The position numbers and the translations under genes were made by a program. Of a stretch of 64,000 nucleotides of DNA, positions 4,345 to 42,464 are shown piece after piece (position 1 is the stretch's first letter; every line of letters starts with the position of its first letter). This stretch comes from a virus (Duplodnaviria; Heunggongvirae; Uroviricota; Caudoviricetes). The notes under the pieces were generated by a model, which saw only the letters and a program-made list of their open reading frames with translations, was not told the DNA's origin and did no database searches. The stretch lies in IMG/VR virus record IMGVR_UViG_2541047860_000002. The stretch is one strand, 5' to 3'.

Positions 4345-4361
4345 TGTTAGAAAACTAATTT
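4345..4361 (+). promoter_or_regulatory. recurrent motif TGTTAGAAAACTAATTT (candidate operator/promoter element)
   Basis: Full 17-mer; overlaps the stop codon of the Ref-like gene. Confidence 0.4.
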
Positions 4362-4933
4362 ATCAATTCAATTGCCATCTGATACAACGCCATTTCATCG
4401 GCATTGTGCCGCATGAAATCTGCTTTTCCGCCTATTTTTCCATCAGCATGAACAGGGACCAGCCAGGGATATTGTTCTCGGACCTCGGCTGGCGCTGCGT
4501 ACTGGTGGTGCCATTTACACAAAGGGAGGACATATTTATGCGCGTTCTCTGCCGTTCTCCCGAAGATATGGTGCAGGGATACTACTGGGCTATGTTGCCC
4601 GTGAATATGGCAGGCAATGCAGGGGAGAGTACCGATAGCGGTCTGTATCCGGCGTTCATCGGCTGTGAGTGATCTGCCCTTCAGGCCGCGTGACGTGCGT
4701 GTTTTTTTGGACGGAGCGGATACAGCTTTCTCTTTTCTCCGCTGGTCATATTGCTTTGCTTTTTCAATTTTTTTTTGCCGATATTCAGGCGATGCGGCTT
4801 TTTCTCTCGCTCGCTGCTGCTGGCGTTGAGCTTGTTGAAGGCGCTTTGCCCTTTGTTCCTCTCGCCAGGCCGGGTCAGCCAATTTTTGCATGGCTTTTTG
4901 TCTCTGTTTCTCCCAGTAGCTCTGTTTCTGCAT
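4355..4933 (-). CDS. HNH-motif protein, Ref (recombination enhancement function)-like
   Basis: 192 aa; Cys/His motifs (CIAC ... HH ... CKWHH) and a C-terminal block resembling P1 Ref as I recall it; lysine/arginine-rich N-terminus. Confidence 0.55.
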   Translation of the reverse strand: MQKQSYWEKQRQKAMQKLADPAWREEQRAKRLQQAQRQQQRAREKAASPEYRQKKIEKAKQYDQRRKEKAVSAPSKKTRTSRGLKGRSLTADERRIQTAIGTLPCIACHIHGQHSPVVSLHHIFGRTAENAHKYVLPLCKWHHQYAAPAEVREQYPWLVPVHADGKIGGKADFMRHNADEMALYQMAIELIN

Positions 4934-4981
4934 GATGGCTGCCTCTTACTTTTCAGCGATTTTTCTATGATTGATCAAAAT

Positions 4982-4990
4982 TGTTAGATA
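4982..4990 (+). promoter_or_regulatory. recurrent motif variant TGTTAGATA
   Basis: Forms an inverted pair with the site at 5003-5011 in the divergent intergenic region. Confidence 0.35.
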
Positions 4991-5002
4991 TTCAAAATTG
5001 AT

Positions 5003-5011
5003 TTTCTAACA
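5003..5011 (-). promoter_or_regulatory. recurrent motif TTTCTAACA (reverse orientation)
   Basis: Partner of 4982-4990; about 195 bp upstream of the DUF4406 gene start. Confidence 0.4.
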
Positions 5012-5205
5012 CAAAACATTAATATCATTCCTGATAACTGTTTGGAGGACATGATGCTTATAGCTTTAAGTGCGATCCACCAGCCATCTGTGAATGAGAT
5101 TGGCCTGTTCTATGTGTTGTTTTTCGGGGCGTTGGCGCTACTTGAGCTTGGTATTGAGCTTTTCGCAGTGCTTATGTTTTGCGTCACGATTTTGGGGAAA
5201 TTTTG

Positions 5206-5829
5206 ATGGTGAAACGTGTTTTGAAAATTTACATCGCGGGGCCGATGACTGGTTATCCAGATTACAACCGTGCGGCGTTTAATGCGAAAGCGAGCGAGTT
5301 GATGGCTGAAGGGCATATCGTTCTGAATCCAGCGGTGTTACCTGGTGGCCTTTGCCAGAGTGAATACATGGATATTTGCCTGGCAATGGTGCGTTCTGCT
5401 GATGCGATCTATTTGCTCAATCAATGGGAAGAATCGGTTGGTGCTCGTGCAGAGCACGCGTTGGCTGAAAAGCTTGGGCTGACTGTAATTTATGAGTCAC
5501 CAACCAACATTGAATGCCAGGTTGCTACGCATATTTACCGGGAACTGGTCAATGCGTTACGTGATGTTGCTATTGAATGTCACGGCACGGATCAGCTTCG
5601 CGCTCGCTTAAGCCAAACCCTTTCCAGTTACCTGTCTTTGGCTGAAGGATACAACCTCCGACAGCGAAGAATGGTCAGATTAATCACGCGGTTATCTCAA
5701 TCCCTGGCAAATGCTGAACCAACTAATCCGCTACCTAATGACGCAATGAATTATCTGAAGTCATGCGGCGTTGTTTCTGAAGATGCAGTTCGTTTTGTGG
5801 AGTTTATGTCTCAGAGGATGTCGGCGTGA
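5206..5829 (+). CDS. DUF4406-like (nucleoside 2-deoxyribosyltransferase-like) domain protein
   Basis: N-terminal KIYIAGPMTGYPDYN motif typical of DUF4406; start taken at the internal ATG at 5206; C-terminal module shared with the ORF at 11567-12733. Confidence 0.55.
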   Translation: MVKRVLKIYIAGPMTGYPDYNRAAFNAKASELMAEGHIVLNPAVLPGGLCQSEYMDICLAMVRSADAIYLLNQWEESVGARAEHALAEKLGLTVIYESPTNIECQVATHIYRELVNALRDVAIECHGTDQLRARLSQTLSSYLSLAEGYNLRQRRMVRLITRLSQSLANAEPTNPLPNDAMNYLKSCGVVSEDAVRFVEFMSQRMSA

Positions 5830-8157: not shown

Positions 8158-8167
8158 TGTTAGAACA
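8158..8167 (+). promoter_or_regulatory. recurrent motif variant TGTTAGAACA
   Basis: Inverted pair with 8179-8187, 45-70 bp upstream of the 8230 gene. Confidence 0.4.
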
Positions 8168-8178
8168 TTGATTATAGT

Positions 8179-8187
8179 TTTCTAACA
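8179..8187 (-). promoter_or_regulatory. recurrent motif TTTCTAACA
   Basis: Partner of 8158-8167. Confidence 0.4.
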
Positions 8188-13916: not shown

Positions 13917-14050
13917 TTTGTTTTCAGAGAAACCATAGAGAGGCATGACTGGATCTATATCGCCCTGGCCATTTAAATGATTCCTCCCATTAGACGCGGT
14001 TACTCACTTGAAGATAAGATGAGGTTATAATTCTCTTTTTAGGTACGCGA

Positions 14051-14473
14051 ATGAGTTCGTCTGCTTTTGTCACTGTTGTCACTGGAGTAAGCGTTTTTGT
14101 CCTAGGTCGACTCATCATCAAGGGGGTTGAGTCTTACATTTCATTCAAGGAACAGTTGGGGGAAATATCGCATCTGTTATTGTCTAACCAAGCAAAGCTA
14201 TCGAATCCCCGCTCTGACTTAAAACAAGAAATCATCCATGATTTGAAAGATGCGGCAGCACAGTTACGGGTGAAGTACGAACTATTACCTTTCTATATCA
14301 AAATGTTACACATCGGTTTTCGCCTTGTTCCATCAGAAACTGAAATTCGTAAAGCGGCGCAAGAATTGAATCTGATAGCCTCGATACATGACGGTAAAAC
14401 CGGAGAGCTGCCATATGAGCACATAGCCAAGATTGGATTACTGCTCAGAATTCCAACCACTTATTCTGCTTAA
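14051..14473 (+). CDS. hypothetical membrane-anchored protein
   Basis: 140 aa with a single N-terminal hydrophobic helix; AT-rich. Confidence 0.45.
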   Translation: MSSSAFVTVVTGVSVFVLGRLIIKGVESYISFKEQLGEISHLLLSNQAKLSNPRSDLKQEIIHDLKDAAAQLRVKYELLPFYIKMLHIGFRLVPSETEIRKAAQELNLIASIHDGKTGELPYEHIAKIGLLLRIPTTYSA

Positions 14474-14575
14474 TCCCAGCAATTGCAAGACTGCATCTCG
14501 AGGATTTAAGGCACCAAGAAGTGGTATTCAGCATCATTAAAACCTATAATTGCGTACACATAACGAGCACACGAG

Positions 14576-14803
14576 GTGTTTATGCAATCCATTAACTTCC
14601 GTACCGCGCGCGGCAACCTTTCTGAAGTGCTCAACAATGTTGAAGCCGGGGAAGAGGTTGAAATCACCCGCAGAGGCCGTGAGCCAGCAGTAATTGTTAG
14701 CAAGGCTACTTTTGAAGCCTACAAAAAAGCGGCGCTGGATGCCGAATTTGCATCCCTGTTTGACACCCTGGACTCCACCAACAAGGAACTGGTTAACCGA
14801 TAA
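14576..14803 (+). CDS. phd: Phd antitoxin (Phd/YefM family)
   Basis: Sequence matches P1 Phd as I recall it; true start probably the ATG at 14582; stop overlaps the doc start. Confidence 0.9.
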
Positions 14804-15183
14804 TGAGGCATATATCACCGGAAGAACTTATTGCGCTTCATGATGCGAATATAAGCCGCTACGGTGGCCTGCCGGGAATGTCAGATCCGGGTAGGGCAGA
14901 GGCCATTATCGGGAGAGTTCAGGCCAGAGTTGCCTACGAAGAGATCAGCGACCTTTTCGAAGTCTCCGCCACCTACCTGGTGGCTACAGCGAGAGGGCAT
15001 ATATTCAATGATGCCAATAAGCGTACCGCGCTAAACAGTGCGCTGCTATTTCTACGCCGTAACGGGGTGCAGGTATTTGATTCACCTGAACTGGCAGACC
15101 TTACTGTAGGCGCTGCGACTGGCGAGATATCTGTATCTTCTGTCGCCGACACGTTACGTAGATTGTATGGTTCTGCGGAGTAG
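14803..15183 (+). CDS. doc: Doc toxin (Fic-fold kinase)
   Basis: 126 aa matching P1 Doc as I recall it; immediately downstream of phd. Confidence 0.9.
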
Positions 15184-15187
15184 ATTA

Positions 15188-15385
15188 ATGGCACGTAAAT
15201 ACAACAAGTTGTCCCGTGAAGCGTTAAAGATGCTTCTTGATGGCGTGAGTCGCCGCGAGGTAAAGCAATACCTGGTTGGTAAGCAAATTGGTGCCAGGAC
15301 CGCTATTGCTGTGTTATGCCGTCAGGAAATGGTTGTGCTTAAACAGAGAATGCTTGGTAGCAGACAAAGTGCTTCCAGTATTTGA
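15188..15385 (+). CDS. small hypothetical protein
   Basis: Internal ATG of track ORF 15167-15385; basic 65-aa product. Confidence 0.3.
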   Translation: MARKYNKLSREALKMLLDGVSRREVKQYLVGKQIGARTAIAVLCRQEMVVLKQRMLGSRQSASSI

Positions 15386-15390
15386 AAAGA

Positions 15391-15417
15391 AGCCCGCCAT
15401 ACCAAGCGGGCTTTTTG
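15391..15417. terminator. bidirectional rho-independent terminator
   Basis: AGCCCGC-CATACCAA-GCGGGCT hairpin followed by a T-run, between convergent genes. Confidence 0.6.
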
Positions 15418-16194
15418 TTATTTCACCTCTTCTGCCGCTGTATCATTGGACTGTTCTTCTTTGGCCCGTTCTGCAATCGCCGCACGGCATTTCGCCCTGG
15501 CTGTAGCGATTGCTTCTGCTCGCACATCGTCTGGAATCGTTGACGTGATATACATATCCAGTTCTTCGGCACGGAATACTGTTTGGTCCAGATATTCGCG
15601 TAGCATCCAAGTAAATTCGAAATCACACGCGATAATCTCTGCGCTACCTTCTGCACCATTTGGGAAATGAATAAATGCCTGTTTAGCCAAACCGATAACA
15701 CGACATGCGGTTGCCAAAACAGCGACAACCAGGTTTACATTTTCACACGCTACGGGCTGATTAACGCCGGAGATTACTCCATTTAACTGTCGGTTATATG
15801 GAAGGTAGTTTGAGATGCGTTCTACGCGCCATGTGCCAGTCAGGCTGCCATTCTTAAAGATAATTGGTGTAACGGATAGCCCAAGCTCGCGTATAAGTCG
15901 TTGCGCTATAGCAGGATCATTAAACATGTCTAATGCTACACATTCGAAAGACTGTGCAAGGGTAAACAGTTCTTCCAGAGAGTAGTCTTTGCCCCTGGCG
16001 GTGATGTAACGATGAACGCCGCTTTCTGCATCGCTCCATATAGCTACGCCATGCTCTTCATTCAGCTCTTCATTAAAGCCGAGATACGTCATGATAGTAC
16101 GTTCAATCGTGTCAAACGGCAGTGACATGTCGGCGTTAACAGCCACCAGCAGGCCATTACGCAAGCGGTATTGAATTGCTTTAGTATTTTCCAC
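15418..16194 (-). CDS. hypothetical protein
   Basis: 258 aa, no recognised motif; first gene-distal member of the minus-strand operon ending at 18201. Confidence 0.5.
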   Translation of the reverse strand: MENTKAIQYRLRNGLLVAVNADMSLPFDTIERTIMTYLGFNEELNEEHGVAIWSDAESGVHRYITARGKDYSLEELFTLAQSFECVALDMFNDPAIAQRLIRELGLSVTPIIFKNGSLTGTWRVERISNYLPYNRQLNGVISGVNQPVACENVNLVVAVLATACRVIGLAKQAFIHFPNGAEGSAEIIACDFEFTWMLREYLDQTVFRAEELDMYITSTIPDDVRAEAIATARAKCRAAIAERAKEEQSNDTAAEEVK

Positions 16195-16200
16195 GTTAAA

Positions 16201-16878
16201 TCACTCCACTACAAACCAGTCACATGCCAGTAAGTCGCCTACAGAAGGAACCCACGGAACAACTACACCTTGTGCATTTTTTAAGGCGAAATAAGCACCA
16301 TACGGAACGAGGTCGCCGGGGAAATATCCCTTAATGGCTTCCATTCGTGCCGGGTACTGTCCTTCAGGAACCAGCCAGCAGAATTGGTTTTCGCCGTTCC
16401 ACCCGCGTCGAGCAACTTTCTTGCCATCCTTCAGCCACATCAGCGCGTCAGAAAAGTCGGCTGCTTCAAGGTCGATTTCTTCTTGCTGGGTGGTGATGCC
16501 ACCAGCAGAAATAGTTACGCTCCCGGTAAGATTAATCATCACGCCGTTGTCATCCGTAATGATGACCGTGGTTCCATTTTTGGAGGCGTCGTTAACCAGG
16601 CCATAGCGTTCCTCAAATGGTTTCTCCGGGGCATAGAACAGATAACCGTTTTCATAAACGATCAGATACCCGCCAGTTTTTGGTCGGTGTTTTTGTAAAA
16701 ACATTGCGTCAACACAAACTGTTGCCCCTTTTGGTTCAACGAGTTCGATGCAGCCCCAAAGTGGGGCATCAGTTACTCCGAAAATAACAACATTTTTGAT
16801 TTTCGATGCACTAACGTTTTTGTGAGCTTTGTATTTGGGAAGGAACTTAAAAAGCTCTTTCGTTGCCATGTTATTCAT
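16201..16878 (-). CDS. two-domain protein with C-terminal DUF2829 (Tad2-like) domain
   Basis: 225 aa; C-terminus FSDALMWLKDGKKVARRGWNG ... PWVPSVGDLLACDWFVVE matches the DUF2829 signature; N-terminal ~140 aa unassigned. Confidence 0.6.
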   Translation of the reverse strand: MNNMATKELFKFLPKYKAHKNVSASKIKNVVIFGVTDAPLWGCIELVEPKGATVCVDAMFLQKHRPKTGGYLIVYENGYLFYAPEKPFEERYGLVNDASKNGTTVIITDDNGVMINLTGSVTISAGGITTQQEEIDLEAADFSDALMWLKDGKKVARRGWNGENQFCWLVPEGQYPARMEAIKGYFPGDLVPYGAYFALKNAQGVVVPWVPSVGDLLACDWFVVE

Positions 16879-16892
16879 AGTCTTTTCTCTGC

Positions 16893-17387
16893 TTATAACT
16901 TTTCGTACTGAAGCGGTGAACGCTTAATTTCAAAGTGGCCTTCCGATGTGCTACCAAAGCCACCAGCACCACGTTCCGTTTCGTTGAGTTCCTCAACCTC
17001 GACTAGTGAGACTTGTTCAACTCGTTCAAAAATTCCTTGCATGACAGCCATTCCAGGCTTGAGACAAACGCCTTCCCCGCCGGGATCAGTAATCAGTTTT
17101 GCCATGATTTCGCCGCGATAATCGGAGTCGATAATTCCTACGCAGTTAGCCAGGCGAGTATGTTTTTTGCAGCCCAATCCGGATCGCGGATAGAGTTTCA
17201 GACACCAGCCGGGCGGGATCTCCATAGCCAGTCCGGTATACACCCACCAGCTTGAGGAAATTGCACCATTGCTATCGACGCATGGTTTTATTTCAACAGC
17301 CTCAAAATCCATCGCCGCCGATCCGGAGGTGGCATAAGCTGGAAGTTTTGCTGCCGGATGTAGGCGTTTCACTTTTACGTAAATCAT
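16893..17387 (-). CDS. dut: dUTP diphosphatase
   Basis: 164 aa with trimeric dUTPase motifs (AMDF, GIIDSDYRGE, RG.GGFGSTS). Confidence 0.9.
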   Translation of the reverse strand: MIYVKVKRLHPAAKLPAYATSGSAAMDFEAVEIKPCVDSNGAISSSWWVYTGLAMEIPPGWCLKLYPRSGLGCKKHTRLANCVGIIDSDYRGEIMAKLITDPGGEGVCLKPGMAVMQGIFERVEQVSLVEVEELNETERGAGGFGSTSEGHFEIKRSPLQYEKL

Positions 17388-17860
17388 TGTTTTTTAGCTC
17401 TCTGCGTGAAGGTGTAAACCCGACGTTTGATATGTGGAACGGTAGGAACAGGAAGACAGGAACTTTCAATAACTCCTTGCTCCTCCAGCGATCGCACCGC
17501 CCGCAAGAACTGCGACGTGTCGCCGCCAAACTGGCGGGCATAGGTGCTGCCGTTATGAAGTATTTGAGCTATTACCCGAGCTTTTGTCTGGCTGTCACGA
17601 TATGCGAATAGCCGCACGGCCTCTTCTGGCGCAATCGCTAACTGATAGCCTTTCCCGGCACGGTGTCGAATGAATCCATGCGCCAGTAGGTTTTTGAGTT
17701 CGTTACGAGTGCGAACAGATCCGTAATCCAGGAAGTGTGGATTGATAACGACTGGCTTAAACCATTCCGTAGGTGCTTTAGCTAATAGAGCTAACAGCTT
17801 CCCGGATAATTCTGGATAGGAAGACGGGTAACAATTCAGAGATGTGTAATAAGTTTTCAC
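17384..17860 (-). CDS. hypothetical protein
   Basis: 158 aa, translationally coupled to dut. Confidence 0.45.
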   Translation of the reverse strand: MKTYYTSLNCYPSSYPELSGKLLALLAKAPTEWFKPVVINPHFLDYGSVRTRNELKNLLAHGFIRHRAGKGYQLAIAPEEAVRLFAYRDSQTKARVIAQILHNGSTYARQFGGDTSQFLRAVRSLEEQGVIESSCLPVPTVPHIKRRVYTFTQRAKKQ

Positions 17861-18201
17861 CGACGCCCCCTTGCAGGATAGCGACCTGCATTAGTATCCG
17901 GTGCAATAAAGCCGGTAGTGGGGCGAGTGAAAGCGAGATTAATCTTCTCGACCATAGTGCGATAATTTTCCTGATAGTGGGCCAGGAGTTTTTCGGCGGC
18001 AATGATGGTTACTTTCCGGACGTAGCTTTCTGCTTCCTCCAGATTTCGCCAGTTTTTTTCGAGGGTAAACACAGGGACGGCCTCAAGCCCGGTCATGATG
18101 CCGAACACAACGACAGCATGACTGTTCTTAACACCAGCGGCGAAGGTTACGGTGTAACCATCCACCTTAAAGCGTCTTGATTCCGTGATTTGACTCTGCA
18201 A
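17857..18201 (-). CDS. hypothetical protein
   Basis: 114 aa; first gene of the minus-strand operon; recurrent motif about 60 bp upstream. Confidence 0.4.
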   Translation of the reverse strand: MQSQITESRRFKVDGYTVTFAAGVKNSHAVVVFGIMTGLEAVPVFTLEKNWRNLEEAESYVRKVTIIAAEKLLAHYQENYRTMVEKINLAFTRPTTGFIAPDTNAGRYPARGRR

Positions 18202-18259: not shown

Positions 18260-18276
18260 TGTTAGAAATTTAATTT
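18260..18276 (+). promoter_or_regulatory. recurrent motif TGTTAGAAATTTAATTT
   Basis: Overlaps the stop codon of the recombinase gene; reads TTTCTAACA toward the 17857-18201 operon on the minus strand. Confidence 0.4.
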
Positions 18277-19487: not shown

Positions 19488-19669
19488 TAAAGTGCCAATT
19501 TTTTTTAATCCATCATAGATTGATGATGACCAGTAACACGTTGCCTTCATGGTCTTTAATTTGCGAAGTGTGGTTTCTACGGTTGGTTTTCTAAAATTGA
19601 TGACAAAAAATCACAGTTCGATCCTTTACTCACTCTGTTATTCGACATAAATTTGTCATAGTAATTTTA

Positions 19670-19686
19670 TGTTAGAAAACTAAATC
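19670..19686 (+). promoter_or_regulatory. recurrent motif TGTTAGAAAACTAAATC
   Basis: Ends 11 bp before the ATG of the 345-aa gene. Confidence 0.45.
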
Positions 19687-19697: not shown

Positions 19698-20735
19698 ATG
19701 AGTAAGAAGTCGATCGAGAAAGAGTACAAACGGTTCCTGCAAACCGCTGAACGGTGGAAAGAGCTGGTGGTCGCAAACTCTGTTTTCCATGATACCAGTT
19801 ATGCTGGCGAGGAATTCCGCCATGTTGCATTAACGCATGACCAAAACATATTAGAAGAAGCTGAAAAATGTCTTGCTGAATGGAAAGCCTTCGTTGACAT
19901 GTGCCGCGATTCCGACGGCAAAGCGTCGAACATTGTTGAGTCTGTATATTCTCCGATCCCATTCATCATTGAGGACACCAATCAAAGCACGCATGTTGTT
20001 GTGCAAAGCGCTACAACAACACGTACATTTACACGTGAACAATTGCTCAAAAAATACGACAAAATCATAAAGAAAAGCCTGAAAAATAGGGTTTTTTCTC
20101 AAATCGTAGGCGCTCTTGAAGAAGAACAGCGCTTCTTTGAAGCTGAGCCTGAAGGCGAGATCTACCGGGCGCGTAAAGAGGCATATACAGATGTTGTGCT
20201 GACAACAAATATCGAAGGCAGCAATGCCCTTTCTCGCTTTAGAGTTGGCGCACATGGCGCATTGGTTTTCGCAAGACTACCGAAGACAACGATCCCCGTT
20301 GTCAATAATGTTGGTGAACGCCGGAGCATTACAATTTATTCTGGCGTCGAATCGGTACCTTGCAGCCTTCTCGGCGATTTTAACTTATATCGTGTTCGTG
20401 ACCTGGAAAAACACCAGCCAAGCTACGTTGCGAAGTCGTACATCTTAAGGAACATCGATATTCGCAATGAAAGCCTTAAGCAGAAATCCGCTAAGATGCT
20501 GGAGGATGCCGATCCGGCTATTCGCCATATCATTGAGCGTAAGATACGTACATCACGTGAAGCAATGGCAAGGCTGGATAAAATGGATCTGGAATTGTTA
20601 GACGTAATGATGGCCTCTGGAGACGACCTGACCGGCATTAAACTGAATGAAGCTCGTAAAAAATACGGCAAAGCAATCGAAGAACGTTACGGATACACAT
20701 TCCCCCAAACGCAGTACGCCGCGAAGCTCTGGTAA
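19698..20735 (+). CDS. hypothetical protein; positional candidate for the immunity repressor
   Basis: 345 aa, no recognised motif; lies between the rox site and pacB where P1-type phages carry c1; recurrent motif directly upstream. Confidence 0.45.
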   Translation: MSKKSIEKEYKRFLQTAERWKELVVANSVFHDTSYAGEEFRHVALTHDQNILEEAEKCLAEWKAFVDMCRDSDGKASNIVESVYSPIPFIIEDTNQSTHVVVQSATTTRTFTREQLLKKYDKIIKKSLKNRVFSQIVGALEEEQRFFEAEPEGEIYRARKEAYTDVVLTTNIEGSNALSRFRVGAHGALVFARLPKTTIPVVNNVGERRSITIYSGVESVPCSLLGDFNLYRVRDLEKHQPSYVAKSYILRNIDIRNESLKQKSAKMLEDADPAIRHIIERKIRTSREAMARLDKMDLELLDVMMASGDDLTGIKLNEARKKYGKAIEERYGYTFPQTQYAAKLW

Positions 20736-22271: not shown

Positions 22272-23635
22272 TAATCATCCTCCGGCGGTTCTATCGCGAT
22301 ATCATCATCTCCGGCGTCATACCCTGCATCAGATGCATCATAATCACCGTAAATTTCAGCCGTTGCCGAAGGGTCAATATCCAGCTCTTCGTCGTTGGCC
22401 TCGAATTCTCCAGCTTTACGCTCGCCATTGCGGTCGTAATCTCCGCACCCCAATTCTTCAACAATGGTTGCCACATCCGCCCGGCGCTCTGCCAGCCATT
22501 GCGGATGGTTAGCCTGAAGCGTTGCAAACTCCCTTGCCTCTTTGTCCAGCTGTTCATCATCAACATCATTGACGTCAGAAACAGGTGGTTCGAGAAGAGT
22601 GATAGCTTTCGCCGCGCGCGCCGCGAGGATAGCCGGGACGCTGACCCCCTGGCGCTCGATGTATTCAGCAACACCGATATCATCCAGTTCCTCGCGCTCA
22701 CGCATACGTATAGCGGCGGCGATAACTCTGGCAGCGCGTGCGTCAGCGCCAATGCGATATTCAATCTCTTTGCCACGCTGTTCGGCCTGTAGGCGTGCTA
22801 ATTCGAGTTTTTCTCTGGCCTCAGCCTCTTTGAATGCTTGCTGGCGAGCGCTCTGACGAAGCTTTTCATCCCCCTGTCGCAGCTTTTGTTCGGACTGATA
22901 TATAGCTGCCAACCTACTGATAAAATCATTCATGTAGTAGGCCGCGTCACTGATTAGACCGAGAAGGCGCTGCCCAGGGTGCATTCCTTCTGGCTCTTTA
23001 TCGCCCAAGGCGTCTATTTCCGCCTGTAGACGTTCGGCCTCCTGATCAACAATGCTTTGATACTGAAGTGCGCGCTCTTGCGCCATTTGAATTGCTAACC
23101 GCAGGTGTTCTTCTGCGCCGTTCTTCATCATGTCGCGAGCCACATTCGTAGTGGGCAATGTGGCACGTTGCACAGCACCGCCAGGGATCATTGCTGAAGA
23201 TCCCTCAATTTTTGGGGCGCTTTTATCTTCTTCGGGGATCATTTTCGCCATTTTTTCGCGCAATGATCTCCTGACAGATTCTTTTATCTCATTGTTATTA
23301 TTTGCATTATTTTCATGATCCGAAGTTTTCTTTCTCGGCATACTTCGGAAAGAACCTGCGCCCTGCGAATTGTCAATTTCTGTAAATTTTGTTTTTTCTG
23401 CACCCTCTTCCAGCTTTTTTGTTGCTCTTCCCGCCCGTTTTTTTTCAGGTGATTTGGTGCTTTTTTTTGTTGTCTTTACCTGCGACCGCACCTCATTTTT
23501 TTTCATATTGAGATGCTTTCTGGCTGTATTGAAGCTAAGGCCATGCTCCTCACAGTATTCCTTTACAGTGATCCCTTTTTCTTCACGCAACGCTATAAAG
23601 CGGGCGCGGTGCTCCTCCCAATTAACCAGACTCAT
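22271..23635 (-). CDS. pacA: terminase small/pac-recognition subunit (PacA-like)
   Basis: 454 aa with N-terminal HTH-like segment and acidic C-terminus; start overlaps upstream gene; carries a GATC cluster (candidate pac site). Confidence 0.6.
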   Translation of the reverse strand: MSLVNWEEHRARFIALREEKGITVKEYCEEHGLSFNTARKHLNMKKNEVRSQVKTTKKSTKSPEKKRAGRATKKLEEGAEKTKFTEIDNSQGAGSFRSMPRKKTSDHENNANNNNEIKESVRRSLREKMAKMIPEEDKSAPKIEGSSAMIPGGAVQRATLPTTNVARDMMKNGAEEHLRLAIQMAQERALQYQSIVDQEAERLQAEIDALGDKEPEGMHPGQRLLGLISDAAYYMNDFISRLAAIYQSEQKLRQGDEKLRQSARQQAFKEAEAREKLELARLQAEQRGKEIEYRIGADARAARVIAAAIRMREREELDDIGVAEYIERQGVSVPAILAARAAKAITLLEPPVSDVNDVDDEQLDKEAREFATLQANHPQWLAERRADVATIVEELGCGDYDRNGERKAGEFEANDEELDIDPSATAEIYGDYDASDAGYDAGDDDIAIEPPEDD

Positions 23636-24024
23636 AAAGCAACACCACGCTTTTTAACGGCGGCATTCCACAGCTTATTCGCCATGTCCACCAGCTCTCG
23701 TTGCTCTTTTCGCGCCTGTTCGACTGATTTCCTGCTACAGTTTTTAACCAGTAAGCTACCGTATTCAGGCGTGCGCCCGCGCACCTTGAACTGATATCCG
23801 TTCAGACCATGTAGCCAGTATTTTCGTGGATACACACGATCATCCAGCTCACAGATTGCCCTGCTTGAACGAACAAAATGACGAATGATGTTAGTTACAC
23901 TTACTCGTGAAACATGGAGATGAGGGTATTTTTCTTTGGCGAGAGTGGTAATTTCAGTGACTGTCAGATAGCAGTCAGCCCTGATCATGATATCCGCAAT
24001 TTCTGCGCTGCTGATTTGTTCCAT
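23632..24024 (-). CDS. putative transcriptional regulator (possible late-gene activator, by position)
   Basis: 130 aa directly upstream of and coupled to pacA, where P1 carries lpa; HTH-like stretch; assignment positional only. Confidence 0.35.
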   Translation of the reverse strand: MEQISSAEIADIMIRADCYLTVTEITTLAKEKYPHLHVSRVSVTNIIRHFVRSSRAICELDDRVYPRKYWLHGLNGYQFKVRGRTPEYGSLLVKNCSRKSVEQARKEQRELVDMANKLWNAAVKKRGVAL

Positions 24025-24132
24025 TAATCCCCCGGGCAGGAAATGACCGAGGGGATGATAATGAGAATGTTAAAACTGTATAGACTGGTAAAAAGATGAT
24101 TATATTAGAAAATTAATATTAAATACCTAACG

Positions 24133-27748: not shown

Positions 27749-27753
27749 TAAAT

Positions 27754-27830: not shown

Positions 27831-28897
27831 ACTTGCCGGGTACGTCTCCGGCGAGGGCTTCCACCTCCGTATGCTTTTCGGCGCACCGCGCCCTGGCTGC
27901 AATTCGGTAACAGGGGATGCACAACCCTGGCTTCCAGCGTGATTAGCGCCTTCAGCATGACGGGATATACCCGTAGTAGGATGTTATCCCAGAAAGCCAT
28001 TAATCAATGGCTGTTACGCGGGAGGGACGTAACAGGTAAGGGCGCTGACCAGAAAGACCTGACCCTTCTCATTCATCTGGTTAATCACACCAGCGCCCTT
28101 GCCTGTTATGCCTCCCCGTTCCCTAATACACAGACGGGGACACTCTGCGGTCGATTTTTTGACGGGGGACGACTCATACCCCGTGGCGTCTGGCTTCTTA
28201 GGCCGCTACCATCATCAGATCATCGTTTGCATTTACTTTAATGGTCGGTTTCTAAACCGCCGCAAAGTCGCTAACCATGACGAAAACCCTAAAAAAGCCC
28301 ACCCGAAGATGGGCAAATACGCTACATCTCACACAAGAAAGAAGCCGACTGCCTGAGCTGGATTCACTTTCAAATGCCCGCAGAAAGGGATCACAAGTCG
28401 GCTTCTTTCTTGATGCGGCACTCTCTCCGCCCGTCACCGCTCTGTCTCGGTTGTCGCGTTTGCCACGCCAGCCGTAACGAGGTTTAAAGTCTTTACACGT
28501 TTCCATCACTCGACTGCCGTCTGTGGCTGTTCGTTGCAGCGGGGGTGCCTCCCCCTGGGGATATCCCCGGCCTTACCCCATTCTTTCAAGACACAATGCA
28601 AGGCCACATCCGCATAGGTGCATTACCGCAACATTAAGGAGACTCAGGGCAAAAGGTAACCGCCACAAAAATCCCTATGCCTCCTTAATGTTGAAGATGT
28701 GCATTGATGATTAGATGCAGCATGTACCGTTACTCTCTGCCGGACCATCATCAATGAACACCTTAAAAAGACCTTCCGTGGCTCAACATGTATTGTCGTT
28801 TACTCCGCAAAGTGCTCTCTCTGAAACCACTTTCCGCACTAAACCTGCTGAACTTTGGCCTGCACGGTGCCAAAGCGTGCTCTTGCATTACCATCCT

Positions 28898-28906
28898 TTT
28901 CTAACA
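28898..28906 (-). promoter_or_regulatory. recurrent motif TTTCTAACA
   Basis: In the ORF-free region upstream (minus strand) of the tRNA cluster. Confidence 0.35.
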
Positions 28907-29053
28907 CTTTAATTTGTTAAATGCTGGTGGGCGAACAATAACCAATAAGTGACTATCAAGCCCAGCAAGCGAAACGTGGGTACTGCCCACCAGCAAGGAA
29001 AATTCTATGTTAAGTTATCTCCACAATCAATACATTCGAATTGTGATTTTAGA

Positions 29054-29062
29054 TTTCTAACA
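29054..29062 (-). promoter_or_regulatory. recurrent motif TTTCTAACA
   Basis: 3 bp before the stop of the 407-aa gene; oriented toward the tRNA cluster. Confidence 0.35.
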
Positions 29063-30294: not shown

Positions 30295-30311
30295 AAATTA
30301 GTTTTCTAACA
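30295..30311 (-). promoter_or_regulatory. recurrent motif TGTTAGAAAACTAATTT (minus strand)
   Basis: Full 17-mer about 20 bp upstream of the probable start of the 407-aa gene. Confidence 0.45.
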
Positions 30312-30897: not shown

Positions 30898-31393
30898 TTA
30901 ATCAAGACAAACATACTCCGTGATAGCTTTTATGGCTTCAGCGGCACTGCGCGCCTCAAAGCAGTAGTAACCGGCTTCAGTGAGGCGGGTCATCCAGACG
31001 AGTTGTTCGGGAGTCAGGCGATTTCTCCCATGTTTCATCTCAATGCGCATTCCGTGGTATCCCCCCACAAGCAAGGTCTATAGAAAGATCGGGATATCCC
31101 TTCTTTTGGCCCTCTGCCACCATTTTTATTGCCGTCCTTATGCCTCGCAGGCCACCGTTTGGAGTGGCGTGAGTATGCTCATACACATAACGCATATTGC
31201 GATACAACCAGTCCAGGACGCGAACCTGCTCGTAATGCTCATGGTTCCTTTTGATTAGATCTGGGTTTTTCTCCAGTTCTCTAAGAGCTGCGGCATGTGG
31301 GGATGTTTCAGAATATTCACTGCGACGCCTTCTCTTTCGCGCTATTTTTCTAACACACATATTGATAGTAAATATGCGAAATAATAACAACAA
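30898..31393 (-). pseudogene. VRR-NUC domain nuclease, frameshifted at a C6/G6 homopolymer
   Basis: N-terminal frame (track ORF 31040-31393) carries the conserved NGG and PDL motifs then stops; the C-terminal E-x-K and LTPEQ motifs continue in another frame to 30898; a 5-nt tract would restore one ORF. Confidence 0.55.
31347..31355 (-). promoter_or_regulatory. recurrent motif TTTCTAACA
   Basis: Lies within the first codons of the VRR-NUC reading frame. Confidence 0.3.
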
Positions 31394-39100: not shown

Positions 39101-39250
39101 AGGATTTCCCCCTCTAAACCGTAAAAATTCCGCTATGCGGTACGGTTGAGAGGGTATGGAGAATGTTATTTTCAGGGGGACGATACTACCGTCAAAATCA
39201 CATACTCCCCATAGTTTGCCTACTTATTAACCCATGACCGGGAGAAAAAT

Positions 39251-39969: not shown

Positions 39970-40673
39970 TCACCTCCCCAACCGATCACCTGGAATTGCC
40001 CCATTTTTGGGTGATACCAACGTTTTCCTCGGTGTTCAGCCTCCGACATCATCCGGTTAAAAGCATTCATGAAGGGAGATAAGGCGACGATGGAACGACG
40101 CGACAATACCCCCTCTGGAGTTAAAAACTCATGTGTATCTGTGGGAATCCGGTAAGCGTTGACAAGGTTGCGGCATTTGGCTTCGGTCAGGCCGCATTTC
40201 GCCGCCAGCTGGCGGTAGCCAATGTAACCTTCCGGCATGTTGCCCTTCTTGATTTGCTCGACGGTTTCTACCACCTGGCTAACCTTTGACTCAACAACAT
40301 GAAGCCGCTTTTGCTGCTGAACTGCATTTGCAGCCATTGCGGCGATCATCTCTATTTCGGTCAACGGCTGGCGTACTTGTTCTTCCAGTTCGCGCCAGCG
40401 GTCCACCAGCCGGGCGGTGAATTCCGGAGAGAGCTGCGCAACGACAATGATACTGTCACGCTTGCCTTGTTCGCCTTCGAAGACGTAGTGTGAATTTTTA
40501 ACTTTAAATCCTAAGTTATTGATATTTTCGGAAACCTCCATTGGAGGAAGTGGAATAACACCTGATTTACTCAAGCGTTCAATAGTGCGTTTAACGTTAT
40601 CCGGGCGACTTCCCACCAGCTCCGCGATCTCAATGCTGGTCATTGATGGCTTTTCAAGAATGCAGATTTCCAT
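39966..40673 (-). CDS. Rha-family phage antirepressor-like protein
   Basis: 235 aa; paralogue of the N-terminal part of 2387-3328 with long stretches of near-identical DNA. Confidence 0.7.
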   Translation of the reverse strand: MEICILEKPSMTSIEIAELVGSRPDNVKRTIERLSKSGVIPLPPMEVSENINNLGFKVKNSHYVFEGEQGKRDSIIVVAQLSPEFTARLVDRWRELEEQVRQPLTEIEMIAAMAANAVQQQKRLHVVESKVSQVVETVEQIKKGNMPEGYIGYRQLAAKCGLTEAKCRNLVNAYRIPTDTHEFLTPEGVLSRRSIVALSPFMNAFNRMMSEAEHRGKRWYHPKMGQFQVIGWGGE

Positions 40674-40897
40674 CAGTGTGCCTCCGCAATTCCGGGATTG
40701 GTAATATTGCGATACCAGGGATTAGTGTTTGGTTGTGGGGAAGTAGAGAAACGACCAGTAAGAACACCATACTGATCAGGGATCAGAGAACGGGCTTCTT
40801 TTTCGGTTGCGGCAATTGCGAAGTGATCGCAGTGTTTTTGCAGGGAGTGGAAACGCCAGATGAATTCTGGACGTGAGCAAGGATTGGCATTAACCAT
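40673..40897 (-). CDS. small conserved prophage protein
   Basis: 74 aa; paralogue of 3328-3543. Confidence 0.5.
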   Translation of the reverse strand: MVNANPCSRPEFIWRFHSLQKHCDHFAIAATEKEARSLIPDQYGVLTGRFSTSPQPNTNPWYRNITNPGIAEAH

Positions 40898-41248
40898 AGT
40901 TACGGCCTCACTAACAGGTTTAACAACCTGCTACCCGCTGTCAAACAGGTGGCAGGACGTGACAGGGTTGACAGACTGGCGTTAGTGAAACCAGCAGGCC
41001 GAAGCCTCCCCATCACGCCCCACCATAATTCGGGCGTAACGCGGTTTACGGACACAAAAATACCGCAATATCGGAAATCTGCGGTTGTCCGCACTAACAT
41101 TCAGGCTGTCAAACCTGGTCGCAGAATTTGCTACGACGGCATGAATATAAGCCTGAAAACATGGAAGATCAACTAAAAAATTTCAGCAATGGATGACTTC
41201 AGTCGATGATGCAGATCATACATTCCGATTTAGAAACAGCAAATTAAT

Positions 41249-41257
41249 TTTCTAACA
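41249..41257 (-). promoter_or_regulatory. recurrent motif TTTCTAACA
   Basis: Intergenic, upstream (minus strand) of the antirepressor cassette. Confidence 0.35.
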
Positions 41258-41311
41258 CAAATCATCGAGCGAGCATTTTCCGATCATTGGGATGCTTTGT
41301 AGACACACAGG

Positions 41312-42274
41312 TCATCCCCTAAATCCCGCAGGGATTGACCAATCCTCCCGGTCAAATTCAGACCGATAGCCACGTTGTTTCATCAGGTCAAAGGCTTCAC
41401 CAATGGTTACACACCCCTGGGAGCCAGAATAATCCATTGAGAAATCCAGGGCACTGGATTGTTTAGGCTTATTCACTGCGGTAGCGGCACTACGTATCCA
41501 TGCAAATTTTTTTGCCAGCTTTTCAGCGGTACGATACAGAGCCTGCCGTTTTGCGTGCCCCTCGTCTGAACGACGCTTTGCAGCTCTCGCTTTTGCCGCC
41601 GCCAGGCAGTGGTTGGTATGTTCTTCCCTGATTACTGTTTTTTTATCCAGTCCCCCATTATCCGCTTGAGTACTATCTGCTGGTGAAGCCTTTGGCTGAA
41701 CCGCGCATGATCTTTCTCTTCTTTTGGCTATAGAGTGACTCTTATTTTCTATTGGCTGTTCATTTTGAACATGGGGGGACTTGTTCAATTTGAACAGGGG
41801 GTTCCCAGTTTCAAAAAAATAACGTACCTTTGAAATCAATTGCTTAACCAGCTTTGTGGCGTTGGCAAATTTGATGCCCTGCTTACCCCCTATCTCCATT
41901 GCTACATGAATGAAGTGGAGAAATTGTGTCGTAAACCGATATACGTTACACACCTGGGCATTGTTATTCGCTACCTGATGTTGCTTAACAAGCATTCCGC
42001 ACTTCGTCGCTTCAGCAAATGCCCGGCGCACAGTAGAAATGCTGCGTCCTGTAATCTCGGACATATCAGCATATGAGCGACGGATCATGTATTCATCGGT
42101 AGACCCTGCCAGGTTGGCGAACTCGGCAATAATGGCGCTATGTGAAGGGGAAAGAAGACCGCTATGACGAGCAAAAAAACTCAACTGATGACCTTTGATT
42201 TTTTTGTGGTATTCAGTGTTGTTTTTATACTCAGAAGTGTTGAAAGTTACTGAAACTGAATTTAAAATACTCAC
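41312..42274 (-). CDS. HTH-containing protein, possibly RepL-like replication initiator
   Basis: 320 aa with an HTH segment (ADMSEITGRSISTVRRAFAEATKCGML) resembling RepL-family initiators; recurrent motif upstream. Confidence 0.4.
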   Translation of the reverse strand: MSILNSVSVTFNTSEYKNNTEYHKKIKGHQLSFFARHSGLLSPSHSAIIAEFANLAGSTDEYMIRRSYADMSEITGRSISTVRRAFAEATKCGMLVKQHQVANNNAQVCNVYRFTTQFLHFIHVAMEIGGKQGIKFANATKLVKQLISKVRYFFETGNPLFKLNKSPHVQNEQPIENKSHSIAKRRERSCAVQPKASPADSTQADNGGLDKKTVIREEHTNHCLAAAKARAAKRRSDEGHAKRQALYRTAEKLAKKFAWIRSAATAVNKPKQSSALDFSMDYSGSQGCVTIGEAFDLMKQRGYRSEFDREDWSIPAGFRG

Positions 42275-42447
42275 CAGATAGTTCCGTGAAAAAATCTATC
42301 TACCGTATAAATCTATGGCAGTGGATTTATACACCCAAAAAGCCGCTTCTCAGCGGCTTTTGCTTTTTTGGCAGTCGCTACCGGAGCAGTGACCGCGATC
42401 CTACTCGATCCCATCCACCAGGATCAACAGTGTATATAAATACACTA

Positions 42448-42464
42448 TGTTAGAAATTTAACTT
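42448..42464 (+). promoter_or_regulatory. recurrent motif TGTTAGAAATTTAACTT
   Basis: Preceded by a 16-bp near-palindrome GTGTATATAAATACAC; about 170 bp upstream of the 41312-42274 gene on the minus strand. Confidence 0.4.

What the first reader, a model, noticed from the sequence alone, without database searches (positions are those of the whole stretch)
4345..42464. Thirteen copies of the motif TGTTAGAAA(A)CTAATTT at gene boundaries
The 9-mer TGTTAGAAA or its reverse complement occurs at 13 sites (starts at about 4345, 4982, 5003, 8158, 8179, 18260, 19670, 28898, 29054, 30295, 31347, 41249, 42448); two are one-mismatch variants, and a chance expectation for one 9-mer on both strands in 64 kb is under one. 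Five sites extend to a 17-bp AT-rich consensus and two pairs are inverted repeats about 21 bp apart. Sites sit upstream of the Ref-like gene, the DUF4406 operon, the candidate repressor gene, the 407-aa gene, the 17857-18201 operon, the tRNA cluster and the RepL-like gene, and several overlap stop codons of the preceding gene. This resembles the dispersed asymmetric operators of a P1 C1-type repressor, or activator-dependent extended -10 promoters (TGnTAnAAA). Either way it maps one regulon across the element.
Basis: partly seen in the sequence, partly recalled or inferred. Interest (0 to 1): 0.7.

Follow-up and report, generated by a model that had tools for sequence, protein, structure and literature searches.

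The report
Repressor operator sites of D6-like phage-plasmid
The repeated TGTTAGAAA motif is real and is most likely the set of binding sites through which this P1-like plasmid prophage's master repressor (C1) keeps its lytic genes switched off; this is a new sequence version of a well-known control scheme.

Summary

The window is a D6-like P1-family phage-plasmid (98.5% identical to Escherichia phage D6). The 345-aa gene is the D6 C1 repressor, and the 130-aa gene is Lpa, the late-promoter activator.

The motif behaves like a set of P1-type C1 operators:
- It is asymmetric and about 17-19 bp long (T-R-TGTTAGAAA-W-Y-TAA-nn-T).
- It is almost entirely intergenic.
- It occurs in both orientations relative to genes.
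- It forms three 30-bp inverted "bivalent" pairs; the two strong ones enclose a -35 hexamer.
- It lies where P1 has C1 operators: c1, lpa, repL, both c4-icd-antirepressor modules, ref, the pmg genes and the tRNA operon.

The core stays invariant in relatives whose C1 is 44-90% identical, while the flanks diverge. It is replaced by CCTTAGAAT at matching positions where C1 is about 30% identical, and by ATTGCTCTAAT in P1.

Lpa-type late promoters here use a different box (AAATCACAnACT-N4-TAnnnT), so the "extended -10 promoter" alternative is rejected.

No binding data exist, and I could not read the D6 genome paper to rule out a prior description. I rate it a new member of a known kind, of modest interest. 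Side lead: the predicted C1 fold tentatively resembles Tus.

The parts
19698..20735 (+). c1, a 345-aa C1-family master repressor and the presumed binder of the motif
   Evidence: Annotated as c1 in D6 records AY753669 and MF356679. It is 21% identical to P1 C1 over 240 aa, E 3e-8. Both hit phrog_1678, at E 4e-170 and 3e-140. Precomputed family PF27008 Phage_P7_repressor_C1.
19670..19686 (+). Operator 11 bp upstream of the c1 start codon (TGTTAGAAAACTAAATC); presumed autoregulation
   Evidence: The core is invariant in five relatives, whereas sequence more than 90 bp upstream is diverged. It lies downstream of a conserved promoter-like TTTACT-17-TAAATT at 19625-19653.
19580..19596 (-). Degenerate second c1-region site (core TTTTAGAAA at 19588-19596), inverted relative to 19670
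   Evidence: a conserved island, TTTTCTAAA, sits in an otherwise diverged spacer. More distant relatives L012 and L013 have a perfect or near-perfect inverted site at this position. Tentative.
24103..24132 (.). Degenerate bivalent operator upstream of lpa (TATTAGAAA ... TACCTAACG); counterpart of P1 Olpa
   Evidence: PWM scores 22.3 and 10.9; inverted repeat. Both halves are perfect TGTTAGAAA in relative L006. It lies 78 bp upstream of the lpa ATG, next to the conserved TATACA-16-TATCAT promoter. P1 Olpa lies 71-87 bp upstream of lpa.
23632..24024 (-). lpa, the late-promoter activator; key target that gates all late genes
   Evidence: PF25716 BPP1_LPA, E 5e-57. 31% identical to P1 Lpa.
42448..42464 (+). 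Operator upstream of repL (lytic replicon); counterpart of P1 OrepL/Op53
   Evidence: A promoter-like TTGATC-18-TAGGAT lies 21 bp downstream in the repL direction.
41241..41257 (-). Operator upstream of the c4 RNA-icd-antirepressor module 1; counterpart of P1 Oc4/Op51
   Evidence: The -35 TTGCTG (41242-41237) overlaps the operator's 3' end, as P2c4 overlaps Oc4 in P1. The C4 RNA and its a1b1 targets lie just downstream.
4345..4361 (+). Operator overlapping the ref stop codon, upstream of the second c4-icd-antirepressor module
   Evidence: Minus-strand promoter-like sites lie at 4337-4309 (score 11.1) and 4371-4344. The second C4 RNA is at 3598-3685. P1 Omat likewise overlaps the ref stop codon.
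4982..5011 (.). Bivalent operator between divergent ref and the DUF4406 early operon; counterpart of P1 Oref
   Evidence: Inverted repeat TGTTAGATATTCAA/TTGATTTTCTAACA. The centre holds back-to-back -35 hexamers: TTGATT on the + strand and TTGAAT on the - strand.
8158..8187 (.). Bivalent operator between ppp and pdcB/DUF968
   Evidence: Inverted repeat. The central TTGATT-17-TATTTT promoter (score 10.2) points at pdcB. The pair is conserved in L006, L008 and L009.
18260..18276 (+). Operator overlapping the dre stop codon, 58 bp upstream of the orf117-dut operon
   Evidence: Conserved in all relatives, including the pK91 remnant.
29046..29062 (-). Operator just after the pmgS stop, 16 bp upstream of the strongest promoter-like site found near any operator site, which points at the tRNA operon
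   Evidence: TTGATT-17-TAGAAT at 29030-29002.
28890..28906 (-). Core-only operator about 100 bp downstream of that promoter; it lacks the AT-rich tail
   Evidence: PWM score 16.6. The core is conserved in relatives but the tail is not.
30295..30311 (-). Consensus operator between pmgR and pmgS; compare P1 OpmgRa/b
   Evidence: PWM score 29.2. The -10-like TAAAAT at 30318-30313 places the start point inside the operator.
31339..31355 (-). Core-only operator upstream of pmgM/VRR-NUC; compare P1 O26
   Evidence: Promoter-like sites lie at 31408-31381 and 31393-31365. It counts as 'coding' only because of an over-long start annotation in D6.
45202..45222 (-). Contrast feature: an Lpa-type late promoter (AAATCACAtACT-N4-TATGCT) upstream of the portal gene. 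Others lie at 476-496(-), 39195-39215(+) and 46649-46669(-)
   Evidence: Same geometry as the P1 late promoters (9-bp box + 4 + hexamer), but a different box and a different motif from TGTTAGAAA.

Best explanation
The sites are the operator set of the element's own C1-family repressor (window 19698-20735).

Inferred mechanism, by analogy with P1:
- One C1 molecule binds each asymmetric 17-19-bp site (T-R-TGTTAGAAA-W-Y-TAA-nn-T). The invariant 9-bp core gives specificity, and a looser AT-rich tail follows it.
- Two molecules bind the 30-bp inverted pairs, which enclose or abut promoter hexamers.
- In the plasmid-prophage state this blocks transcription of lpa, and hence of every Lpa-dependent late promoter.
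- It also blocks repL (lytic replication), both c4-icd-antirepressor modules, ref, the early operons, the dut operon, the tRNA operon and the pmg genes.
- It autoregulates c1.
- Loss of C1 activity, presumably through the Rha/KilA-type antirepressors, releases the whole regulon at once.

Shown here: the motif statistics, architecture, positions, conservation and co-variation, and the homology of C1. Inferred: that C1 is the binder, that it binds as a monomer, and that the outcome is repression.
For: 1. Enrichment and placement. There are 11 exact copies against 0.45 expected. In the annotated D6 genome, 11 of 12 exact copies lie in the 10% that is intergenic.

2. Identity of the element and the repressor. 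The window is 98.5% identical to phage D6. The 345-aa gene is D6 c1. It is homologous to P1 C1 and carries PF27008.

3. Same architecture as the P1 operators.
- The site is asymmetric, with a strong core plus a position-specific AT-rich tail, like P1's ATTGCTCTAATAAATTT (PMC8546580).
- It has tail-to-tail overlapping inverted pairs at a fixed 21-bp offset, like P1 Obanab and Oc1ab.
- It has about 16-20 sites per genome in D6, against 22 in P1.

4. Positional correspondence with annotated P1 operators.
- c1 corresponds to Oc1; lpa to Olpa; repL to OrepL; c4-icd-ant to Oc4; ref to Oref.
- The site over the ref stop codon corresponds to Omat.
- pmgR/S corresponds to OpmgR, and pmgM to O26.
- Outside the window, the hrdC-dmt site in D6 corresponds to Odmt.

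5. Promoter-like hexamers overlap or abut most sites. Two of the three pairs have a -35 at their centre.

6. Footprint. In relatives with C1 at 80% and 69% identity, the core is 96% and 95% conserved, the tail 83% and 68%, and the flanks 62-66% and 39-49% (alignments).

7. Co-variation with the repressor.
- The core is kept where C1 is 44-90% identical.
- CCTTAGAAT replaces it at matching positions (upstream of c1, upstream of lpa, after the recombinase stop, after pmgS) where C1 is about 30% identical.
- P1 has 19 copies of its own core (within one mismatch) and no TGTTAGAAA. The window and D6 have no P1 core within one mismatch.

8. The late promoters are a separate motif.
Against: - There is no binding or transcript evidence of any kind. 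The link to C1 rests on analogy and co-variation, which a different lineage-specific regulator could also produce.
- C1 here is only 21% identical to P1 C1.
- The P1 accessory proteins Coi and Lxc are absent from the window and from D6, so the circuit is not a copy of P1's.
- Several sites are not on top of a convincing promoter: 18260, 28898 and 42448 lie 20-100 bp from the nearest promoter-like site. The strict consensus scan found fewer promoters than the shuffles did.
- Two sites (28898, 31347) have the core but no tail.
- The c1 operator lies downstream of the likely promoter rather than over the -35 as in P1.
- The footprint figure for the most distant relative is partly circular, because the core anchors the local alignment.
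Confidence: 0.8

Rival explanations
1. The motif is a promoter element, not an operator. It would be either an activator-dependent extended -10 (TG-n-TAGAAA), or, read on the other strand, an Lpa-type late promoter (AAATTAGTT-TTC-TAACAT).
For: - Read in reverse, the 17-mer loosely resembles the P1 late-promoter layout. The P1 late-promoter PWM gives its second-best window score (12.1) at site 4345.
- Four or five sites have a TAnnnT hexamer ending on the first T of the core.
- Most single sites are co-oriented with a downstream gene.
Against: - Whichever strand is taken, at least 3 single sites point into the 3' end of a convergent gene. Read forward these are 4345, 18260 and 42448; read in reverse, 28898, 29054, 30303, 31347 and 41249.
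- The motif sits upstream of c1, lpa, repL and the c4 modules, which are not late genes.
- The real late operons (portal, ddrB, PG hydrolase and mat in the window; also capsid, tail genes 16 and 7, and pmgB in D6) carry a different conserved box with P1-like geometry.
- TAGAAA lacks the -7 T at all sites.
- All nine core positions are invariant, which is typical of a protein-binding site and not of a -10 element.
Confidence: 0.05
2. The motif is a genuine regulatory binding site, but for a protein other than C1. Candidates are another lineage-specific phage regulator (a Rha/KilA-type protein, or a small DNA-binding protein of the early operon) or a host factor.
For: - Nothing here shows physical binding by C1.
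- Relatives annotate a small 'DNA-binding protein' in the early operon.
- Two Rha/KilA-type proteins are encoded.
- Co-variation with the C1 clade would also arise for any regulator inherited with the same backbone.
Against: - The positions match those of experimentally defined C1 operators in P1 one for one.
- A site sits at c1 itself in every lineage examined. This includes the pK91 remnant, which keeps little more than c1, dre and the dut operon.
- The early-operon gene content varies among relatives that keep the identical core.
- A host factor is unlikely, because P1 shares the host and has no exact copy of the motif.
Confidence: 0.1
3. The motif is a non-regulatory repeat. It could be a recombination or module-boundary sequence, or an RNA-level element, that happens to sit at gene junctions.
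For: - Sites lie at gene boundaries, and some overlap stop codons.
- The gene content between sites differs among relatives, as expected if repeats mediated module exchange.
Against: - It occurs in both orientations, so a single transcribed RNA motif is unlikely.
- The fixed 21-bp inverted-pair geometry, with -35 hexamers inside the two strong pairs, is a protein-binding and promoter arrangement.
- The positions correspond to P1 operators, although the two sequences are unrelated.
Confidence: 0.03

Closest known systems
Bacteriophage P1/P7 C1 repressor and its dispersed operators (immC; Op/O sites, consensus ATTGCTCTAATAAATTT)
   Same: - The repressor is homologous.
- Both use asymmetric 17-bp-class sites with a strong core and an AT-rich tail ending in AATTT.
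- Both have about 20 sites scattered round the genome, in both orientations.
- Both have bivalent, overlapping, tail-to-tail inverted pairs.
- Both sets lie at c1, lpa, repL, c4-icd-ant, ref, dmt and the pmg genes (PMC8546580).
   Different: - The core sequence is unrelated: TGTTAGAAA against ATTGCTCTAAT, with no cross-matches.
- C1 is 345 aa rather than 283 aa and only 21% identical.
- There are no Coi, Lxc, ImcA/B, KilA or Ant1/2 homologues.
- The pairs span 30 bp rather than 28 bp.
- The c1 operator lies next to the ribosome-binding site rather than over the -35.
- There are two c4-icd-antirepressor modules, each with an operator.
P1 Lpa-dependent late promoters (-22 box AAGTGACTT, 4 bp, TAnAAT)
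   Same: The element has an Lpa homologue. It also has promoters of the same geometry upstream of late operons.
   Different: Those promoters carry AAATCACAnACT, not TGTTAGAAA. The finding's motif is not this element.
Stoperators of cluster A mycobacteriophages (L5 gp71): many asymmetric repressor sites spread through the genome (comparison recalled from memory)
   Same: - Many copies of a short asymmetric site lie in short intergenic gaps across the whole genome.
- Several sit inside operons or against stop codons, not only at promoters.
   Different: - The repressor family is unrelated.
- Stoperators are strongly oriented with transcription, whereas orientation here is mixed.
- Inverted pairs are not a stoperator feature.
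E. coli Tus-Ter (a monomeric protein on an asymmetric 23-bp site)
   Same: - The predicted C1 model's only significant Foldseek matches in the PDB are four Tus chains (E 9e-7 to 5e-6).
- Both systems are thought to use one protein per asymmetric site. This is established for Tus (from memory) and inferred for C1.
   Different: - The TM-score is low (0.31).
- There is no sequence-level link.
- The operator's resemblance to Ter is not significant.
- Tus has a different function, replication-fork arrest.

Membership tests
P1-type C1 repressor/operator system | A C1-family repressor gene is encoded in the same element | tested here: met
   Window 19698-20735 is D6 c1. BLASTP to P1 C1 gives E 3e-8. 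Both hit phrog_1678. PF27008 Phage_P7_repressor_C1.
P1-type C1 repressor/operator system | Many dispersed copies of an asymmetric site of about 17 bp | tested here: met
   11 exact copies against 0.45 expected. 11 of 12 exact D6 copies are intergenic. The information profile is asymmetric, running from -2 to +16.
P1-type C1 repressor/operator system | Sites at the promoters of c1, lpa, the lytic replicon, immI (c4-icd-ant) and other early genes | tested here: met
   Site table compared with the P1 annotation. Promoter-like hexamers overlap or abut most sites. No mapped transcription starts are available.
P1-type C1 repressor/operator system | Bivalent operators: two sites as an overlapping inverted repeat | tested here: met
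   Three pairs at a fixed 21-bp offset. The geometry is conserved in relatives. Compare P1 Obanab and Oc1ab.
P1-type C1 repressor/operator system | Match to the P1/P7 operator consensus ATTGCTCTAATAAATTT (P1/P7 immunity specificity) | tested here: not met
   The window and D6 have no match to ATTGCTCTAAT within one mismatch; P1 has 19. This is therefore a different specificity within the family, not P1/P7 immunity.
P1-type C1 repressor/operator system | C1 protein physically binds the sites (as a monomer) and represses | not testable with these tools
   Needs EMSA/footprinting, ChIP/DAP-seq or reporter assays.
P1-type C1 repressor/operator system | The accessory modulators Coi (anti-repressor) and Lxc (co-repressor) are present | tested here: not met
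   tblastn with P1 Coi, Lxc, ImcA and ImcB finds nothing in the window or in D6 at E <= 0.01. PMC6799933 also reports no Lxc in a D6-like plasmid.
Lpa-dependent late promoter | A conserved -22 box at fixed spacing from a TAnnnT -10, upstream of and co-oriented with late operons | tested here: not met
   The P1 late-promoter PWM gives no strong hit. TGTTAGAAA sites have mixed orientation and lie at early or immunity genes. A separate motif, AAATCACAnACT-N4-TAnnnT, meets this definition.
Extended -10 sigma-70 promoter | TG one base upstream of a TAnnnT hexamer, oriented towards a gene | tested here: not met
   The hexamer is TAGAAA (no -7 T) at all 13 sites. Sites 4345, 18260 and 42448 face convergent 3' ends.
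Tus-like DNA-binding fold (for the C1 protein) | Structural similarity of the whole protein to Tus | tested here: inconclusive
   [not shown]

The most novel reading that the evidence does not exclude
C1-family repressors of P1-like phage-plasmids may form a structurally distinct class of repressors without a helix-turn-helix.
- They would have a Tus-like two-domain fold and read long asymmetric sites as monomers.
- Their operator cores would have diversified clade by clade while keeping position, length and pair geometry.
- Three cores are seen here: ATTGCTCTAAT in P1/P7, TGTTAGAAA in the D6 group (stable down to 44% C1 identity), and CCTTAGAAT in the Leclercia/Pantoea group.

If so, the D6-type operator set defined here would be the second specificity of a family-wide recognition code that could be solved. 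Immunity groups of phage-plasmids could then be predicted from sequence.
Probability: 0.35. Interest if true: 0.6.

Novelty: new member of a known kind. Interest (0 to 1): 0.38.

Why it matters
D6-like phage-plasmids are common in E. coli, Salmonella and Shigella: about 95 plasmid records cover the 20-kb query region, and 149 carry this C1 type. Some carry resistance genes or have left remnants in resistance plasmids.

Knowing the operator sequence has three uses:
- It defines the lysogeny regulon.
- It predicts which variants should be homoimmune. All variants with C1 at 44% identity or more keep the same core.
- It provides a compact, orthogonal repressor/operator pair related to the P1 system that is already used in cloning vectors.

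Conceptually it adds little. It is the P1 scheme with a different recognition sequence and without Coi or Lxc.

Tried and rejected
- **P1 late-promoter PWM on the window.** No convincing hits, which led to the de novo late-promoter box.
- **Strict sigma-70 consensus scan.** It found fewer promoter-like sites than the shuffles did, so it is uninformative. I replaced it with my own weighted scan, which is suggestive only.
- **Other intergenic-enriched words.** TTGAGGGCAAATCTTACACC and TGTAAAAA are RepA iterons around the plasmid origin in D6, outside the window, and are unrelated.
- **Operator against the E. coli Ter sequence.** The alignment TATGTT-(AGAA/GT)-AACTAA looks striking but is not significant (185-653 of 5000 shuffles score as well). 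P1 and Leclercia operators show nothing. Rejected as coincidence.
- **Aligning the P1 and D6 operators.** Only the AATTT tail is shared, apart from a short TCTAA/TTAGA word that lies on opposite strands relative to the tail. No convincing common core.
- **BFVD fold search.** No significant hit.
- **AFDB50.** Unavailable.
- **PDB sequence and profile searches for C1.** Empty.
- **Literature.**
  - The D6 genome paper (Gilcrease & Casjens 2018, PMC5800970), the D6 immC paper (Sauer & McDermott 2004) and the P1 genome paper (Lobocka 2004) are not in the library.
  - Full-text searches found no paper describing D6 operators and none linking C1 to Tus.
  - Prior description therefore cannot be excluded.
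  - The D6 GenBank records annotate rox and cix sites but no operators.

Full report
**1. The observation**

An exact search finds TGTTAGAAA or its complement 11 times in the 64-kb window, against 0.45 expected from dinucleotide shuffles (maximum 3).

The two one-mismatch sites it named, 4982 TGTTAGATA and 8158 TGTTAGAAC, exist. They are the inverted partners of 5003 and 8179. One-mismatch variants in general are barely enriched (26 against 15.8), so only the exact copies and the paired variants carry weight.

A k-mer census ranks TGTTAGAAAA as the commonest 10-mer of the window.

The 13 sites give the consensus T-R-TGTTAGAAA-W-Y-T-A-A-n-n-T. With 47 distinct site contexts from relatives, information extends from -2 to +16 and is clearly asymmetric.

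**2. What the element is**

The window is a D6-like member of the P1 supercluster of plasmid prophages. It is 98.5% identical to Escherichia phage D6 and 99.3% identical to many E. coli and Salmonella plasmids.

From the D6 records:
- 19698-20735 is c1, the 'prophage repressor'.
- 23632-24024 is lpa. Pfam confirms this (PF25716).
- 18275-19303 is the Dre recombinase.
- 41312-42274 is repL.

Rfam finds two C4 antisense RNAs, each followed by icd and a Rha/KilA-type antirepressor gene. They lie at 3598-3685 and 40945-41030.

The C1 protein is only 21% identical to P1 C1 (E 3e-8). Both proteins hit phrog_1678 at E below 1e-139. The precomputed family for this protein and its homologues is PF27008, Phage_P7_repressor_C1.

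**3. Comparison with P1, using P1's own annotation**

The P1 record AF234172 annotates 20 monovalent C1 operators and 11 late promoters. I extracted their sequences.

P1 operators are asymmetric 17-mers, ATTGCTCTAATAAATTT. They have a strong 5' core and a looser AT-rich tail, occur in both orientations, and form two 'bivalent' tail-to-tail overlapping pairs of 28 bp. PMC8546580 states that 22 such operators are dispersed over P1.

The D6-type motif has the same build: a 9-bp invariant core, an AT-rich tail that also ends in AATTT, and both orientations. It has three tail-to-tail pairs spanning 30 bp:
- 4982-5011
- 8158-8187

The positions correspond closely to P1:

| Site in window | Location | P1 counterpart |
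|---|---|---|
| 19670 | upstream of c1 | Oc1 |
| 24103/24124 | 78 bp upstream of lpa | Olpa (71-87 bp upstream) |
| 42448 | upstream of repL | OrepL |
| 41249 | upstream of the C4 leader; a -35 overlaps the operator end | Oc4/P2c4 |
| 4982/5003 | upstream of ref | Oref |
| 4345 | overlaps the ref stop codon | Omat |
| 30303 | between pmgR and pmgS | OpmgR |
| 31347 | upstream of pmgM | O26 |

The full D6 genome adds a pair upstream of hrdC-dmt, matching P1's Odmt.

The recognition sequences themselves are mutually exclusive. P1 has 19 copies of its core (within one mismatch) and no TGTTAGAAA. The window and D6 have no P1 core within one mismatch.

**4. Is it instead a promoter element?**

Orientation argues against this. 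Read forward, sites 4345, 18260 and 42448 point into the 3' ends of ref, dre and pro. Read in reverse, 28898, 29054, 30303, 31347 and 41249 point the wrong way. The would-be -10, TAGAAA, lacks the -7 T at every site.

The P1 late-promoter matrix finds nothing convincing in the window. A different intergenic-enriched word does mark the late operons. AAATCACAnACT-N4-[T/C]AnnnT lies upstream of, and is co-oriented with, the following genes:
- In D6: portal, ddrA, gene 16, pmgB, capsid, gene 7 and mat.
- In the window: mat (476-496), the peptidoglycan hydrolase (39195-39215), portal (45202-45222) and ddrB (46649-46669).

Its geometry (a 9-bp box, 4 bp, then a hexamer) is that of the P1 late promoters. 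Its different box fits an Lpa that is only 31% identical to P1's. So Lpa has its own motif, and TGTTAGAAA is something else.

**5. Relation to sigma-70 promoters**

The tool's strict scan was uninformative. A weighted scan of my own found promoter-like hexamer pairs at or next to most sites:
- Pair 4982/5011 has back-to-back -35 hexamers at its centre: TTGATT towards the early operon and TTGAAT towards ref.
- Pair 8158/8187 has TTGATT-17-TATTTT at its centre, pointing at pdcB.
- At 41249 the -35 overlaps the operator tail.
- At 30303 a TAAAAT -10 puts the start point inside the operator.
- At 29054 the operator lies 16 bp upstream of TTGATT-17-TAGAAT, the strongest promoter-like site found near any of the operator sites.

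Upstream of c1 and lpa, the promoter-like hexamers are conserved across relatives. These are consensus matches, not mapped transcription starts.

**6. Conservation and co-variation**

Plasmids carrying C1 variants were fetched.
- With C1 at 90%, 80% and 69% identity, the core is unchanged at the matching positions: 10, 11 and 13 copies per 41 kb.
- The 21-bp pair offset is also kept, while the tails and the pair centres vary.
- Measured over orthologous sites for the 80% and 69% relatives, identity is 96% and 95% in the core, 83% and 68% in the tail, and 62-66% and 39-49% in the flanks.
- Metagenomic relatives with C1 at 51% and 44% identity still carry TGTTAGAAAA upstream of c1 and elsewhere.
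- Where C1 is only about 30% identical (Leclercia and Pantoea plasmids), TGTTAGAAA is absent or occurs once. CCTTAGAAT appears instead upstream of c1, upstream of lpa, after the recombinase stop and after pmgS.

The family therefore shows three recognition cores at conserved positions, each tracking its C1 clade. This is what operators of the master repressor should do. It does not formally exclude another co-inherited regulator.

**7. Mechanism proposed**

C1 binds each asymmetric site, probably as a monomer as reported for P1 C1 (from memory). Two molecules bind each 30-bp pair.

Repression of lpa blocks the whole late tier. Repression of repL, the two antirepressor modules, ref and the early operons maintains the plasmid prophage. 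The site next to the c1 ribosome-binding site gives autoregulation. A degenerate but conserved inverted site 82 bp upstream (19588) might allow looping, as described for P1 (from memory).

The circuit is simpler than P1's. No Coi, Lxc, ImcA/B, KilA or Ant1 homologues exist in the window or in D6.

**8. A side lead on the protein**

Tus is a monomer that clamps an asymmetric 23-bp site, so a shared fold would neatly explain asymmetric operators. The evidence is inconclusive. The resemblance between the operator and Ter is not significant. No held paper links C1 to Tus.

**9. Novelty and limits**

The scheme is the classical P1 C1 regulon. What may be new is the D6-type operator sequence, the map of its sites, and its stability across a wide C1 clade.

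The D6 GenBank records annotate rox and cix sites but no operators. No held paper mentions such sites. The D6 genome paper and the D6 immC paper could not be read, so prior description cannot be excluded.

No binding or transcript data exist.

This is a new member of a known kind, of modest interest.

Noticed in passing
[not shown]
   Followed up: partly
window 476-496(-), 39195-39215(+), 45202-45222(-), 46649-46669(-): A second conserved motif, AAATCACAnACT-N4-[T/C]AnnnT, lies upstream of late operons (mat, PG hydrolase, portal, ddrB; also capsid and tail genes in D6). It is most likely the D6-type Lpa-dependent late promoter, with the same geometry as in P1 but a different -22 box.
   Followed up: partly
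L010 (Leclercia plasmid NZ_CP042508) 8084, 9145, 9477, 19211, 24324; L011 (Pantoea plasmid NZ_CP045723) 16499, 22918: In phage-plasmids whose C1 is about 30% identical, CCTTAGAAT replaces TGTTAGAAA at the matching positions (c1, lpa, recombinase stop, after pmgS). This is a third operator specificity in the family.
   Followed up: partly
window, whole length (e.g. 5077, 8538, 12840 ...): The Chi sequence GCTGGTGG occurs 33 times (11 on +, 22 on -), against about 2 expected. D6 has 53 copies and P1 has 50. Chi-containing words are the most over-represented 8-mers and 9-mers in every relative examined.
   Followed up: partly
window 3598-3685(-) and 40945-41030(-): There are two separate C4 antisense RNA-icd-antirepressor (immI-like) modules, each with an operator upstream. 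The first is also preceded by an isrK-like leader (3730-3808). A D6-like plasmid paper (PMC6799933) had already noted the duplication.
   Followed up: partly
window 25555-27830(-): ARAGORN and Rfam place five tRNA genes (Met, Ser, Thr, Tyr, Arg) on the minus strand. The D6 record annotates its tRNAs (Ser, Thr, Asn) on the plus strand of the collinear region, so the strand in that record looks wrong. The tRNA content also differs from D6.
   Followed up: no
window 19580-19596(-): A conserved variant site (core TTTTAGAAA) lies 82 bp upstream of the c1 operator, inverted, in an otherwise diverged spacer. More distant relatives have a perfect site there. It may be an auxiliary operator or a looping partner.
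   Followed up: partly
L007 (Salmonella Typhi plasmid pK91, NZ_CP029871) 14036-21893: A conjugative IncFIB resistance plasmid carries a D6-like remnant (hot-humD-phd/doc-dut-dre-c1, truncated by IS26). It has an intact c1 (68% identical) and two operator sites.
   Followed up: no
L010 (Leclercia plasmid), dispersed: The GATC-containing word GTGATCAC(T) occurs 7-10 times in 30 kb, including just upstream of c1. Its function is unknown. It could be that lineage's late-promoter box or a Dam-sensitive site.
   Followed up: no
window 56001-62000: A block with higher G+C (about 55% against about 48% elsewhere) lies in the part of the window that no longer aligns with D6. It was not examined.
   Followed up: no
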